From UHGV virus genome UHGV-0862314: DNA of 11,943 nt. One strand, 5' to 3'. Within the stretch, counting starts at the first letter, position 1. Every line of letters starts with the position of its first letter. This DNA comes from a virus. The notes beneath the pieces are model-generated. The model had not been told where the DNA came from. It saw only the letters and a program-made list of their open reading frames with translations, and ran no database searches. Of the stretch, positions 1,568 through 3,775 are shown in pieces. Both the position numbers and the translations under genes were made by a program.

Positions 1568-2630
1568 AGTATCCAACAGTCTGAACTGCCCCTGACCCAG
1601 ATGAAGATGATTGAAGTTCCATGGTGTAATAACCATTAAGTGGCTCACCTTCCCAATCAAGGTTAATGCGTAATACATGGCCATATTTGGTTGCATTTGA
1701 CTGGGCGATAAACCCTCCAGGCTTATCTATATCTCTCTGTGGCATCCCAGAATATACCTGATTTGCAGTATATGCCTTATCAACAGCAGGAGCGCCAATA
1801 GAGGCGGTAATTTTAGGCCACGTTCCGGAGCTGTGCAGAACATCTACAGCATACCCGGTAAGCCCGGTTGATGTTCTCCTGATCAAACATTCAATATACC
1901 CACTCCCATGAGATCCGCCAATCGACTTGATAATCAGTTTTGCAGTACCGCAATCCCATGGATTTAAAGTCTGATCCCAACATTCAGCCTTTAGGCCGCT
2001 AGGCATAGGAAAATCCACGCTGGTTAACACTGCCTCACCTGGCCATACTCCTCCCACAACTATTGGACTCGGTATCCTGACACTCAATGTTTCTAAATAT
2101 CCTCTTCCCCATCCATTATTTGTTTGTCTGGCAAGGTGCTCGTAAATTGGCCTTATTGTCAAAGCCTGAATAAACGCTGGCTTGGATGCTGACGCATCTG
2201 CTGCGTTATAAATACTGATAGTTTTCCATCCCCTACCAATCAGCGTACCAATACGCTTTTGCAAGGCATCAGAGTGATTATTAGATCCACGATTTCGTGC
2301 TACAGTAACAGTGCTCTGAATTGCGTTATAGTTTGTTTGCACAAAACTATTTTGCTCGGCGAAAGCATAGTATGAAACCCCTATAGAGGGAGGGACCTCC
2401 TGTGGTTCAGAGAAGCAAAATGACAAATTAGAGTCATCCAGCCAGCTACCAACAACATCAACTTCTGCTGCCTCTGCATCAAGATAGAAACTGTATGACG
2501 TTCTAACATATTTTCCAGCATCAAACCCACCAATGATGCCTTGAAGCGTATATGTCTCGTAACCAAATCCCATTGTTACATTGTCAAAAGCATCAAAAAA
2601 ACCATCTGATCGCTCTGTTTGTATGGCCAT
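1566..2630 (-). CDS. 354-aa hypothetical protein directly downstream of and overlapping the tailspike ORF; likely the distal receptor-binding part of the tailspike or a second tail-fiber protein
   Basis: ORF track. Gly/Ser/Thr/Tyr-rich composition with no motif I recognise. It overlaps the tailspike ORF by 55 nt in another frame, and neither ATG 2630 nor ATG 2573 has a clear Shine-Dalgarno. Confidence 0.6.
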
Positions 2631-3775
2631 ACCGTTATTTCTGTAGATACTGGTCTATAAAACGGAAGCATTCCTCCGGCCATCATCATTGAACCAATTG
2701 CTTCAGCTATTCGTTGATATCCGACAGAGTTGAAGTGAATTGGATCTGATGCGATAGAACCATATGGGATATTGTATGGTATTTCATTTGCTTCGATATA
2801 TGCACAACCATATACATGAGCTAAATTTCTGATTTCCTGCCCCCAAATTTGGAACTGTTGAATATTACCATGCTGCTCATTACCACCTGCAACTGGCTGA
2901 AGAATAATAACCCCCATCCCCCAATCAATGAATCTACGAATGAACTTCTCCATATACGTTAAATACACGTCTATCGTGGTTGATGTAGAGTCATTTATCG
3001 CATACATAATAATTGCAACATCACAATTAGGATTATCCTGCCATGCTAAATATTCAAATCCTTGTTGTGCTGTCTGCCCGGATACTGCTCTAGTGATACT
3101 TGTTACATTCCCACCGGTACAGATAGAAAGGTATCTTGCGAGCCTTTCTGGATAGGTTACATTAGCACGACGCGTTAACCCTGTTCCGTTTGCATCTGTT
3201 GAGTTAGGATCCCAACCAAAAGTCTCACTATCTCCCTGACAAAGGATCGATAATCCAGACTTTTTACGAAGATTGAAGTGAGCCTTGGTAAGAGCCTGAA
3301 TATTTCTGTTTCTATAATCAGCGCTATCTGATGCCAAAGTAGCGTTGCCAAGATTTGTAATGTGCTCTTGAACAGTCTTCCCATCATCAGTTCCGATTAA
3401 TAAAGATCCTCCTGATCCAGACAGTTCCTGTCGCAGTTGATCTGGATCATATTTAATTACATTAGGGTAATAAAATTGCAAACCACCAACAGCATCATAC
3501 ACCGCCATCGAATGGCCTTTCACAGTAACAAACTTGGCAATCTGTCCGTTATATACAGGGTAACCAGCAGCGTTAATGATGATTGGTTGCGAAACAGGAA
3601 CGTGAGAACCATCCTCATTATCCACATAAACCTGAATCTGGTTTTCAGGATTTACAGGGTCAGTGTCAATTTTACCGATATAAATTTTGCCATTGGCAAC
3701 CGCTTTAAAAGAACGCGCCATAGTGAAAAGTTGCGAAGGCATCGATACGATCACATTGGCTGTAATGTCTGTCAT
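2576..3775 (-). CDS. Tailspike protein: P22 gp9-like N-terminal head-binding domain fused to an SGNH/GDSL hydrolase (esterase) domain
   Basis: N-terminus [59 protein letters not shown] closely matches the recalled P22 tailspike N-terminus ([58 protein letters not shown]). Downstream SGNH blocks are GDSET (codons at 3221..3235), AIND, and DPIH (about 2735..2746). GGAG ribosome-binding site at 3786..3789 with good spacing. Confidence 0.85.

What the first reader, a model, noticed from the sequence alone, without database searches (positions are those of the whole stretch)
2576..3775. Tailspike with a P22-type head-binding domain grafted onto an SGNH esterase domain, next to an O-antigen acyltransferase
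The sequence shows a conserved P22 gp9-like N-terminal domain followed by an SGNH/GDSL hydrolase domain (GDSET, AIND, DPIH) in place of the P22 endorhamnosidase beta-helix. SGNH tailspikes in other phages act as receptor-modifying O-antigen deacetylases. About 1.5 kb away the same element carries an Oac-like acyltransferase. A prophage that both acetylates the host O-antigen and carries a tailspike able to remove acyl groups is an unusual receptor-modification pairing. It may set superinfection exclusion or host range.
Basis: partly seen in the sequence, partly recalled or inferred. Interest (0 to 1): 0.7.

Follow-up and report, generated by a model that had tools for sequence, protein, structure and literature searches.

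The report
Frameshifted esterase tailspike of P22-like prophage
This is the tailspike gene of a P22-like E. coli prophage whose receptor-binding part is an acetyl-esterase of a known phage family. The copy in this window is broken by a one-base deletion, and it sits beside the prophage's usual sugar-acetylating gene, so it is a fairly ordinary member of a known class.

Summary
The domain observation is real. ORF 2576-3775 (minus strand) has a P22 head-binding domain (Pfam E 3.8e-64) followed by an SGNH/GDSL domain that scores above Pfam's cut-off. GDS(183), G233, N261 and D344xxH347 are invariant across 27 relatives.

The 399-aa ORF is only the front of the gene. A 1-nt deletion near 2603 splits a 736-codon tailspike into ORFs 2576-3775 and 1566-2630. 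The intact allele (99% nt identity) occurs in other E. coli.

Residues about 97-725 are homologous to the solved tailspikes of Shigella phages B2 gp48, Moo19 gp82 and SFP21A gp09 (E 1e-95; TM 0.86). B2 and Moo19 have measured esterase activity.

The same architecture, with a convergent acyltransferase next to it, is in Salmonella phage g341c. A phage named c341 was shown to deacetylate O-antigen in 1976.

The acyltransferase pairing is recurrent, not unusual:
- 4 of 5 SGNH tailspike lineages have it, against 7 of 33 other P22-like tailspike types.
- The receptor-binding part and the acyltransferase move together, even into a long-tailed prophage.

The window's first 1321 nt are inverted. The exact 127-bp inverted repeat points to a chimeric assembly.

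Verdict: a new, probably defective member of a known kind. Interest is modest.

The parts
2576..3775 (-). 5' ORF of the tailspike gene (399 aa). The frame is correct up to about codon 386, then 13 out-of-frame codons and a stop.
   Evidence: The exact 399-aa product is on record once, in GCA_001292545.1.
3437..3775 (-). P22-type head-binding (virion-attachment) domain, residues 1-113.
   Evidence: Pfam PF09008, E 3.8e-64. PDB Sf6 gp14 7sg7, E 2.8e-61, and P22 gp9 8tvr, 2xc1 and 1lkt.
2666..3253 (-). SGNH/GDSL esterase domain, residues about 175-370. Ser183 is at 3227-3229, Gly233, Asn261, Asp344 at 2744-2746 and His347 at 2735-2737.
   Evidence: Pfam PF13472, 44.7 bits against a cut-off of 32.9. 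These columns are invariant. pLDDT is about 90. Foldseek TM 0.68-0.74 (normalised to the target) to Axe2, 1yzf and TAP.
2602..2604 (-). Site of the 1-nt deletion that breaks the tailspike reading frame. In the coding sense CAGATTGG becomes CAGATGG, 2 nt upstream of a T7 run.
   Evidence: Pairwise alignment with L001. The same deletion is in L002, because the 399-aa and 354-aa ORFs are both called there.
1566..2630 (-). 3' part of the tailspike gene (354-aa ORF): the C-terminal beta-rich domains of the receptor-binding module, out of frame with the 5' ORF.
   Evidence: Collinear with residues 387-736 of the intact 736-aa homologue. Aligns to B2 gp48, Moo19 gp82 and SFP21A gp09 through residue about 725. 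phrog_8460 tail fiber, E 4.6e-22.
1545..1564 (+). GC-rich hairpin followed by a T run, lying between the convergent acyltransferase and tailspike genes (terminator-like).
1327..1542 (+). 3' end of the AT3 acyltransferase gene (codons 314-384), in its native convergent position 23 nt from the tailspike stop codon.
   Evidence: The intact 384-aa gene is at L001 8067-9221 and L002 10194-11348. Pfam PF01757, E 9.6e-23.
1..1062 (-). Codons 1-354 of the same AT3 acyltransferase gene, inverted relative to the other assemblies and running off the window's left end.
   Evidence: Window 1-1258 is the reverse complement of L001 7871-9127 (99.7% identity). Window 1-1330 equals L002 10288-11617 (100% identity).
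1259..1330 (+). First 72 nt of an IS256-family (Transposase_mut) element, ending at a chimeric junction. The junction is the 9-nt microhomology GATTTATGG at 1322-1330.
   Evidence: The transposase is at L002 11614-12822, Pfam PF00872 E 1e-119.
1322..1448 (+). One arm of an exact 127-bp inverted repeat. The other arm is window 1-127 and ends exactly at the first base of the window.
   Evidence: Self-BLAST.
3878..4171 (+). Arc/Mnt-family repressor gene (97 aa), divergent from the tailspike. It is a remnant of the immI region.
   Evidence: Gene call and Pfam Arc / Repressor_Mnt in L002 7565-7858. Annotated 'Arc family DNA-binding protein' in many E. coli genomes.

Best explanation
The feature is the tailspike gene of a P22-like (Lederbergvirus-type) prophage of E. 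coli.

Its N-terminal head-binding domain docks the protein on the virion tail. The receptor-binding part is an esterase module: an SGNH catalytic domain followed by C-terminal beta domains. This replaces the usual beta-helix glycosidase. The module is homologous to the tailspikes of Shigella phages B2, Moo19 and SFP21A. Its architecture is the same as the tailspike of Salmonella phage g341c.

By inference from those relatives, the intact protein binds an O-acetylated surface polysaccharide, most likely the O-antigen, and removes acetyl groups using the Ser183/Asp344/His347 triad without cutting the backbone. Processive deacetylation would bring the virion to the outer membrane.

In this window the gene carries a 1-nt deletion at codon 386. 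It therefore encodes only head-binding + SGNH (399 aa) and loses the 350-residue C-terminal part. It is most likely a pseudogene in a decaying prophage.

The adjacent 384-aa AT3 acyltransferase is the prophage's lysogenic-conversion gene. It is inferred to O-acetylate the same polysaccharide and so alter recognition by this or other phages.

The inverted arrangement of the acyltransferase in the window is most likely an assembly chimera.
For: What is shown directly:
- Domain calls.
- The virion gene order gp10, needle, gp14, gp7, gp20, gp16, Arc/Mnt, tailspike.
- The intact 736-aa allele at 99.2% nt identity, next to intS and tRNA-Arg.
- The single-base deletion, present in a second assembly.
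- The 90%-identity cluster has 74 members. Of the 15 listed, 11 are 736 aa and the named ones are all E. coli. The 399-aa form is on record once.

Homology:
- PDB 9d84 B2 gp48 (E 1.8e-95, residues 97-723), 9lna (1.1e-87) and 9d80 Moo19 gp82 (4.2e-83). With a profile these reach E 1e-237 to 1e-204.
- AlphaFold model: pLDDT 76.7 overall and about 90 in the SGNH domain.
- Foldseek: 9d81 and 9lna at TM 0.86 (normalised to the target), rmsd 3.4-3.8 A; acetyl-xylan esterases at TM about 0.7.
- SGNH blocks I, II, III and V are invariant in 27 relatives.

Function of relatives, from papers:
- B2 and Moo19 tailspikes hydrolyse p-nitrophenyl acetate, and a host mutant that lacked GlcNAc O-acetylation (and also the gtr locus) was completely defective for entry of both phages (PMC11654681).
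- G7C gp63.1 deacetylates O-antigen processively and needs that activity to infect (PMC10743462).
- Salmonella anatum phage c341 tailspikes deacetylate O-antigen (Iwashita and Kanegasaki 1976, cited in PMC5380687).
- g341c has Head_binding + Lipase_GDSL_2 and a convergent AT3-SGNH acetyltransferase.

The acyltransferase:
- Pfam PF01757 and phrog_3333 O-acetyltransferase.
- Sf6 Oac, BTP1 OafB and phiV10 Oac occupy this position, and Sf6 Oac and BTP1 OafB block their own phage's tailspike (PMC9558356; PMC10408124).

Assembly chimera:
- The exact 127-bp inverted repeat ends at window base 1.
- The junction is a 9-nt microhomology 72 nt inside an IS.
- The order is collinear and non-inverted in L001 and L002.
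Against: - No enzymatic or structural data exist for this protein or for any head-binding + SGNH tailspike with a known sequence.
- That c341 of the 1976 paper is the sequenced g341c rests on my own recollection that c341 is a clear-plaque derivative of g341. No paper I could read confirms it.
- The substrate is unknown. The host O-antigen could not be typed.
- G7C gp63.1 (4QNL) is not detected by sequence or in the top 50 Foldseek hits. The link to the one tailspike with proven O-antigen deacetylation rests on the statement in PMC11654681 that the topologies are highly similar.
- The frameshift could be a sequencing error. The window carries at least one other indel (T6 against T5 at 5662) that a second assembly lacks.
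- Superposition of the triad in three dimensions could not be checked, because model coordinates are not exposed.
Confidence: 0.8

Rival explanations
1. The gene is intact in the real genome. The one-base deletion at 2603 is a sequencing or assembly error, and the prophage makes a full 736-aa esterase tailspike.
For: The window has another indel in a homopolymer (T6 against T5 at 5662) that splits the gp16-like gene and is absent from L002, so this assembly is not indel-free. Eleven of the 15 listed members of the 90% cluster are 736 aa, and the other listed members are shorter or partial sequences.
Against: The deletion is not in a long homopolymer (TT becomes T). It is present in two different assemblies, the window and GCA_001292545.1. 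They may, however, derive from the same reads.
Confidence: 0.25
2. The frameshifted gene still yields some full-length tailspike. The deletion lies 2 nt upstream of a run of seven T. A -1 ribosomal slip on T_TTT_TTG, or insertion of one U by RNA polymerase slippage, would restore the frame with only 2-4 residues changed.
For: The sequence context is read directly from the window: ATG GTT TTT TTG ATG in the broken frame, against GGT TTT TTT GAT in the intact allele. Slippage on runs of 7 or more A or T is established in bacteria (my own knowledge).
Against: The T7 run is ancestral and present in intact alleles, so it was not selected for recoding. No stimulatory structure was looked for. The efficiency would probably be low. 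There is no sign that this allele is maintained, since it is seen once.
Confidence: 0.07
3. The esterase targets a surface polymer other than the O-antigen, such as a capsule, colanic acid or enterobacterial common antigen, and the neighbouring acyltransferase modifies that polymer.
For: Deacetylating spikes acting on capsular polysaccharides are known (Vi phages in PMC5380687; capsule esterases). No substrate evidence was obtained here.
Against: P22-like tailspikes and the conversion genes behind them are overwhelmingly specific for O-antigen (PMC10408124). The closest characterised homologues depend on the O-antigen and its modifications. The host of the intact prophage has a degraded colanic acid cluster.
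Confidence: 0.12
4. The inverted acyltransferase segment (window 1-1321) is a real rearrangement. It could be an inverted duplication or an invertible on/off switch for O-acetylation, flanked by inverted repeats of at least 127 bp.
For: An exact inverted repeat flanks the segment. Phase-variable O-acetylation by P22-like prophages exists (CUS-3, cited in PMC2629481).
Against: The repeat is exactly 127 bp, a common maximum assembler k-mer, and stops at the first base of the window. The inner junction is a 9-nt microhomology inside an IS end, not a recombinase site. A true structure would need a second copy of the tailspike-proximal DNA. L001 and L002 are collinear and L002 reads through the IS to the integrase.
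Confidence: 0.12

Closest known systems
Tailspike (gene 14) of Salmonella phage g341c (FJ000341, Lederbergvirus). By my recollection this phage corresponds to the 'c341' whose tail parts deacetylate S. anatum O-antigen (Iwashita and Kanegasaki 1976).
   Same: Identical architecture: Head_binding 1-115 + Lipase_GDSL_2 187-361 + C-terminal beta domains. It has the same genome position after gp16. It is followed by a convergent O-polysaccharide acetyltransferase and then the integrase. The head-binding domain is 85% identical.
   Different: The receptor-binding part is only about 30-32% identical. Its acetyltransferase is a 640-aa AT3-SGNH fusion unrelated in sequence to the 384-aa AT3 here. The host is Salmonella Anatum. 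The g341c gene is intact, whereas the window's is frameshifted.
Esterase tailspikes of Shigella phages B2 (gp48, PDB 9d84), Moo19 (gp82, 9d80/9d81) and SFP21A (gp09, 9lna).
   Same: Homologous over the whole receptor-binding module, residues about 97-725 (E 1e-95 to 1e-83). Foldseek TM 0.86 normalised to the target. The GDS, G, ND and DxxH residues are conserved (alignments). Esterase activity of the B2 and Moo19 tailspikes has been measured (PMC11654681).
   Different: They belong to lytic N4-like or T7-like phages and have other N-terminal adaptors. B2 needs a partner protein, gp49. There is no adjacent acyltransferase. Sequence identity is 28-35%.
G7C gp63.1 (PDB 4QNL), the reference O-antigen deacetylase tailspike.
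   Same: It works the same way: an SGNH esterase tailspike that leaves the backbone intact, needs O-acetylated O-antigen and acts processively (PMC10743462). PMC11654681 reports that its topology is highly similar to B2 and Moo19.
   Different: It is not detectable by sequence or profile search and is not among the top 50 Foldseek hits. It is attached through gp66 on an N4-like virion.
Tailspike plus O-acetyltransferase conversion modules of Sf6 (gp14 + Oac), BTP1 (tailspike + OafB) and phiV10 (tailspike + Oac).
   Same: The gene layout is the same, with the acyltransferase directly behind the tailspike and next to the integrase. The logic is prophage-encoded O-acetylation that alters the phage's own receptor (PMC9558356).
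   Different: In Sf6 and BTP1 the tailspike is an endorhamnosidase that the acetyl group blocks sterically. Here the tailspike itself removes acetyl groups, so the relation between what the acyltransferase adds and what the tailspike removes is unresolved.

Membership tests
P22-type tailspike (gp9 / Sf6 gp14 class) | N-terminal head-binding domain (Pfam PF09008). | tested here: met
   E 3.8e-64, full-length match 1-113 of 113. 7sg7 E 2.8e-61 and 1lkt E 2.8e-42.
P22-type tailspike (gp9 / Sf6 gp14 class) | Position in a P22-like late operon, after gp10, gp26, gp14, gp7, gp20 and gp16 and before the conversion genes and integrase. | tested here: met
   Pfam calls for all neighbouring genes. The full context is seen in L001 and L002.
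P22-type tailspike (gp9 / Sf6 gp14 class) | Right-handed parallel beta-helix glycosidase as the receptor-binding domain. | tested here: not met
   No beta-helix family matches. The model shows an alpha/beta SGNH domain plus beta-sandwich domains. The only Foldseek hits to P22 and Sf6 are to the N-terminal domain.
SGNH/GDSL hydrolase superfamily | Block I GDS with the nucleophile Ser, block II Gly, block III GxND Asn, and block V DxxH. | tested here: met
   G181-D182-S183, S232-G233, N261-D262 and D344-x-x-H347 are all invariant in 27 relatives. Pfam PF13472 scores 44.7 bits against a cut-off of 32.9.
SGNH/GDSL hydrolase superfamily | Three-layer alpha/beta/alpha flavodoxin-like fold. | tested here: met
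   In the AlphaFold model, residues 150-370 have pLDDT about 90. Foldseek TM 0.66-0.74 (normalised to the target) to Axe2, 1yzf, TAP and other SGNH esterases.
SGNH/GDSL hydrolase superfamily | Ser/Asp/His superimpose on a known triad in three dimensions. | not testable with these tools
   Model coordinates are not exposed. Only the sequence alignment to solved homologues supports this.
B2 gp48 / Moo19 gp82 / SFP21A gp09 esterase tailspike family | Homology across both the SGNH domain and the C-terminal beta domains. | tested here: met
   Met for the intact allele: E 1.8e-95 over residues 97-723, profile E 1.5e-237, TM 0.86.
B2 gp48 / Moo19 gp82 / SFP21A gp09 esterase tailspike family | A single uninterrupted polypeptide carrying both parts. 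| tested here: not met
   The window copy is split at codon 386 by a 1-nt deletion.
B2 gp48 / Moo19 gp82 / SFP21A gp09 esterase tailspike family | Measured esterase or deacetylase activity. | not testable with these tools
   Shown only for relatives (PMC11654681; PMC10743462).
AT3 O-antigen O-acetyltransferase (Oac-like) | Acyl_transf_3 membrane domain. | tested here: met
   PF01757, E 9.6e-23, 81 bits against a cut-off of 31. phrog_3333 O-acetyltransferase, E 6.4e-37.
AT3 O-antigen O-acetyltransferase (Oac-like) | Acetylation of the O-antigen, causing serotype conversion. | not testable with these tools
   Inferred from its position next to the tailspike and integrase and from Sf6, BTP1 and phiV10 as precedents.

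The most novel reading that the evidence does not exclude
The esterase receptor-binding module and its AT3 acyltransferase may form a co-inherited two-gene 'write and erase' cassette for one polysaccharide acetyl mark. The prophage would install the mark, or a neighbouring blocking mark. The virion's tailspike would read and remove it, in the way the haemagglutinin-esterase of influenza C destroys its own receptor.

Such a cassette could set exclusion, release from cell debris and host range together. It could also be kept by the host after the prophage decays.

Support found here:
- An AT3 gene follows 4 of 5 SGNH tailspike lineages, against 7 of 33 other P22-like tailspike types (one-sided Fisher p about 0.02).
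- The receptor-binding part and the acyltransferase diverge together: 82%/86% identity in Yersinia, and 76%/70% in a long-tailed prophage with an unrelated adaptor. The convergent spacing stays at 23-25 nt.
- In Yersinia enterocolitica both genes remain intact in a remnant of about 7.6 kb that has no virion genes.
Probability: 0.25. Interest if true: 0.6.

Novelty: new member of a known kind. Interest (0 to 1): 0.3.

Why it matters
Deacetylating tailspikes are much less studied than glycosidase tailspikes. Activity has been measured for only a few of them (c341 in 1976, G7C, B2 and Moo19, and Pectobacterium phages). This locus shows that the same esterase module is common on P22-like prophages of E. 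coli, Salmonella, Yersinia, Cronobacter, Citrobacter and Proteus, and that it usually travels with an O-acetyltransferase. If the two enzymes act on the same acetyl mark, that would explain how such temperate phages manage exclusion and receptor use. It would also matter for predicting serotype and phage host range from prophage tailspikes. This particular copy adds little, because it is a frameshifted allele in a partly mis-assembled contig.

Tried and rejected
- Searching papers for the PDB codes 9D84, 9D80 and 9LNA returned only unrelated hits. The entries were identified instead through the Moo19/B2 paper and the Foldseek descriptions.
- No held paper contains both 'g341c' and 'tailspike'. 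The epsilon34 genome paper does not mention g341 or c341. The epsilon15 tailspike preprint could not be opened. The identity of c341 with g341c therefore rests on my own recollection.
- A link to G7C gp63.1 by sequence was rejected. 4QNL is absent from the phmmer and profile searches and from the top 50 Foldseek hits.
- The genome-contig scan gave only 5 loci, too few for statistics. I used viral contigs instead.
- Typing the host O-antigen failed. E. coli 23CRST047 has a rare ABC-transporter-type cluster found in 7 of 5426 genomes, about 74% identical in nucleotides to an O92-family cluster, and no serotype-labelled strain matched.
- tblastn of the AT3 protein against phage genomes found only a distant Halomonas phage hit, so it is not a close relative of Sf6 Oac or of other sequenced phage Oac proteins.
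- I considered and rejected that the 354-aa ORF 1566-2630 is a separate gene. It is collinear with the C-terminal half of the intact homologue, and no good ribosome-binding site precedes its ATG.
- Programmed frameshifting as the native state was rejected, because relatives have a single ORF.
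Full report
**What the window is.** The window is the late region of a P22-like prophage, read on the minus strand. Pfam identifies these genes:
- gp10 (10298-11716)
- an Sf6-type tail needle with knob (9450-10298)
- gp14 (8995-9453)
- gp7 (8300-8992)
- gp20 (6959-8290)
- a lytic-transglycosylase/gp16-like ejection protein, split into two ORFs (5639-6958 and 4189-5490)

An Arc/Mnt-family gene lies on the plus strand at 3878-4171. 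The ORF of the finding follows at 2576-3775.

**Checking the observation.** The 399-aa product of 2576-3775 matches Head_binding PF09008 over residues 1-113 (E 3.8e-64). It matches Lipase_GDSL_2 PF13472 over residues 181-355 (44.7 bits, cut-off 32.9), and also PF00657. In alignments of 14 and 27 relatives that are 34-81% identical, these residues are invariant: G181, D182, S183, S232, G233, N261, D262, S343, D344 and H347. They correspond to SGNH blocks I, II, III and V. The domain observation is therefore real and far beyond chance.

**The ORF is not the whole gene.**
- ORF 1566-2630 overlaps it by 55 nt in another frame.
- A complete E. coli genome, strain 23CRST047, has the same region at 99.2% nt identity, with a single 2211-nt CDS of 736 aa annotated 'SGNH/GDSL hydrolase family protein'.
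- Base-by-base alignment shows that the window lacks one base at about 2603. CCAATC becomes CCATC on the + strand, which is CAGATTGG becoming CAGATGG in the coding sense.
- The frame breaks after codon 386, just past the SGNH domain. The window ORF ends after 13 wrong residues. The 354-aa ORF carries the rest of the protein.
- The exact 399-aa product is on record in one contig only, GCA_001292545.1 CYGL01000464.1, where the 354-aa ORF is also called.
- The 90%-identity cluster has 74 members. Of the 15 listed, 11 are 736 aa, and those with names are all from E. coli.
- The window is not that NCBI contig. It differs by two indels and in its end structure. The deletion is therefore seen in two assemblies, though possibly built from the same reads.
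- I consider a real pseudogenising mutation more likely (about 0.7) than a sequencing error.
- The deletion sits 2 nt upstream of a T7 run, where ribosomal or transcriptional slippage could restore the frame. This is speculative.

**What the receptor-binding part is.**
- Against the sequences of solved structures, residues 97-725 of the intact allele match Shigella phage B2 gp48 (9d84, E 1.8e-95), SFP21A gp09 (9lna, 1.1e-87) and Moo19 gp82 (9d80/9d81, 4.2e-83). The catalytic motifs align.
- A profile of 27 relatives raises these to E 1e-237 to 1e-204.
- An AlphaFold model of the intact allele has mean pLDDT 76.7, about 90 in the SGNH domain and 80-90 in most of the C-terminal beta domains. The head-binding domain scores low, as expected for a monomer model of an intertwined trimer.
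- Foldseek returns the same three structures first, with TM 0.86 (normalised to the target) and rmsd 3.4-3.8 A for 9d81 and 9lna. P22 and Sf6 N-terminal domains come next, followed by SGNH esterases such as acetyl-xylan esterase Axe2 (TM about 0.7).
- The purified B2 and Moo19 tailspikes hydrolyse p-nitrophenyl acetate. A host mutant that lacked GlcNAc O-acetylation (and also the gtr locus) was completely defective for entry of both phages. The authors report topology highly similar to G7C gp63.1 (PMC11654681).
- G7C gp63.1 deacetylates the O-antigen without cutting it. The reaction appears processive and is essential for infection (PMC10743462).
- G7C itself was not detectable by sequence here.

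**Precedent in P22-like phages.**
- tblastn against phage genomes finds the module at 32-35% identity in N4-like and T7-like phages of Shigella, Salmonella, Citrobacter, Cronobacter and Morganella, and in the P22-like Salmonella phage g341c.
- g341c gene 14 has the same Pfam architecture: Head_binding 1-115 and Lipase_GDSL_2 187-361. It is followed by a convergent 640-aa AT3-SGNH 'O-polysaccharide acetyltransferase', a GtrA-like flippase and the integrase.
- The tailspikes of Salmonella anatum phage c341 were shown in 1976 to deacetylate O-antigen rather than cleave it (Iwashita and Kanegasaki, cited in PMC5380687). That c341 corresponds to the sequenced g341c is my recollection and is not confirmed by any paper I could read.
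- The large protein database holds dozens of 90% clusters with PF09008 + PF13472, from E. coli, Cronobacter, Yersinia, Citrobacter, Salmonella (one Anatum cluster has 470 members) and Proteus.
- The same module is also joined to Tail_spike_N (PF18668) or to T7-like adaptors.
- A PHROG family, phrog_19528, already covers the architecture.

**The acyltransferase and the left end of the window.**
- In 23CRST047 and in the NCBI contig, an intact 384-aa Acyl_transf_3 gene (PF01757, E 9.6e-23; phrog_3333 O-acetyltransferase) is convergent with the tailspike, with 23 nt between the two stop codons. The integrase, next to tRNA-Arg, follows it. In the NCBI contig an IS256-family element lies in between.
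- In the window only codons 314-384 are in that position (1327-1542). A hairpin-plus-T-run terminator follows at 1545-1564.
- Codons 1-354 lie inverted at 1-1062 and run off the window.
- Window 1-127 is the exact reverse complement of 1322-1448.
- The inner junction (1322-1330) is a 9-nt microhomology, GATTTATGG, between the acyltransferase and a point 72 nt inside the IS end.
- The repeat is exactly 127 bp, which is a common top k-mer size for assemblers. It ends at the first base of the window. A real structure would need a second copy of the flanking DNA, and both other assemblies are collinear. I therefore read this as a fold-back chimera at the start of a contig (about 0.8), not a biological inversion.

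**Is the pairing unusual?** No. An O-antigen modification gene directly behind the tailspike is the normal conversion position in these phages (PMC10408124). Sf6 Oac and BTP1 OafB acetylate the O-antigen and block their own phage's tailspike, and phiV10 also carries an Oac homologue that acetylates the O157 antigen (PMC9558356). The association with esterase tailspikes is nevertheless notable.
- Among head-binding tailspikes with at least 1.2 kb of downstream sequence, clustered at 60% identity of the receptor-binding part, 4 of 5 SGNH lineages have an AT3 gene within 1.5 kb downstream.
- For other tailspike types the figure was 6 of 33 by iterative search (Fisher p 0.012). Pfam raised it to 7 of 33, which gives a one-sided p of about 0.02 by my own hand calculation.
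- The exception is an E. coli lineage in which a large membrane protein without a Pfam hit follows the tailspike.
- The two genes also diverge together. Yersinia and Cronobacter copies are 82% (receptor-binding part) and 86% (AT3) identical to the E. coli pair.
- A prophage with a tape-measure protein and a Tail_spike_N adaptor, which is not P22-like, carries the pair at 76% and 70% identity. The convergent spacing stays at 23-25 nt.
- More distant SGNH tailspikes carry unrelated AT3 proteins.
- This fits a two-gene cassette that is exchanged as a unit. The numbers are small, the samples are not phylogenetically independent, and the control set is mostly from E. coli.

**How it most likely works.**
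- Shown here: the domain composition, the intact catalytic motifs, homology to tailspikes with measured esterase activity, the frameshift, and the neighbouring AT3 gene.
- Inferred: the intact protein trimerises on the P22-like tail through its head-binding domain, binds an O-acetylated O-antigen, and removes acetyl groups with Ser183/Asp344/His347. Gly233 and Asn261 would form the oxyanion hole. This would move the virion toward the membrane. The AT3 protein would acetylate the same polymer in lysogens.
- Not decided by the present data: whether the AT3 mark blocks the tailspike (the classical exclusion model, which I favour slightly) or is the tailspike's substrate.
- The host of the intact prophage has a rare ABC-transporter-type O-antigen cluster with its own acyltransferase next to gnd. 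A chromosomally acetylated receptor plus a second, prophage-added acetyl group is therefore conceivable. The serogroup could not be named.

**Verdict.** The domain observation is confirmed, but the ORF is a frameshift fragment. The protein belongs to a known class of esterase tailspikes that already has a sequenced P22-like example with the same neighbouring acetyltransferase. This copy is probably defective, and the window's left end is probably mis-assembled. It is a new member of a known kind, and interest is modest. The recurrent, co-transferred esterase/acyltransferase pair is the only aspect worth following up.

Noticed in passing
window 5662 (ORFs 5639-6958 and 4189-5490): An extra T in a T run (T6 against T5 in the NCBI contig) splits a 922-aa SLT + P22_gp16 ejection protein into 439-aa and 433-aa ORFs. 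This is probably an assembly error. The fusion of a lytic transglycosylase to gp16 is itself a variant seen in Sf101-like phages (phrog_21143).
   Followed up: partly
window 5789-5854: A perfect 33-bp tandem duplication inside the gp16-like gene, encoding [11 protein letters not shown] twice.
   Followed up: no
window 1-127 and 1322-1448; junction at 1322-1330: An exact 127-bp inverted repeat ends at window base 1. The fold-back junction is at a 9-nt microhomology, 72 nt inside an IS256-family element. This is the signature of a chimeric k=127 contig start.
   Followed up: yes
L004 1788-9412, also L005 and L006 (Yersinia enterocolitica): An intact 743-aa SGNH tailspike and a 384-aa AT3 gene survive in a prophage remnant of about 7.6 kb. 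The remnant has an integrase, an xis-like gene and a dam methylase but no virion genes (L005 keeps only a 220-aa gp16 fragment), and it lies next to methionine-salvage genes. It is seen in many assemblies. The pair may have been domesticated by the host.
   Followed up: partly
L016 295-9038: A prophage with a tape-measure protein (long-tailed) carries the same esterase receptor-binding module (76% identity) on a Tail_spike_N adaptor, together with the same AT3 gene (70% identity), convergent and 23 nt apart.
   Followed up: yes
L159 11997-22239 (E. coli 23CRST047): The host of the intact prophage has a rare wzm/wzt (ABC-transporter) O-antigen cluster with its own acyltransferase beside gnd. 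The cluster occurs in 7 of 5426 complete E. coli genomes and is about 74% identical in nucleotides to an O92-family cluster. The colanic acid cluster is degraded.
   Followed up: partly
L003 5659-8037 (phage g341c gene 14): The GenBank CDS (792 aa) has a hydrophobic C-terminal extension of about 87 aa that is absent from the 705-aa alleles in Salmonella Anatum prophages (P0030). This is probably a frameshift or read-through in the record.
   Followed up: no
window 3698-3810: Seventeen of the 21 differences from the 23CRST047 allele cluster in the first 26 codons of the tailspike gene and its upstream region. This suggests a recombination boundary inside the head-binding domain.
   Followed up: no
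loci L078-L157, downstream of non-SGNH P22-like tailspikes: A Pfam survey of the genes behind 33 other tailspike types found AT3 in 7, hexapeptide acetyltransferases in 3, MBOAT in 1, GT2 in 5, GtrII in 2 and free-standing Lipase_GDSL_2 proteins in 2. Separate SGNH genes therefore also occur in this conversion slot.
   Followed up: no
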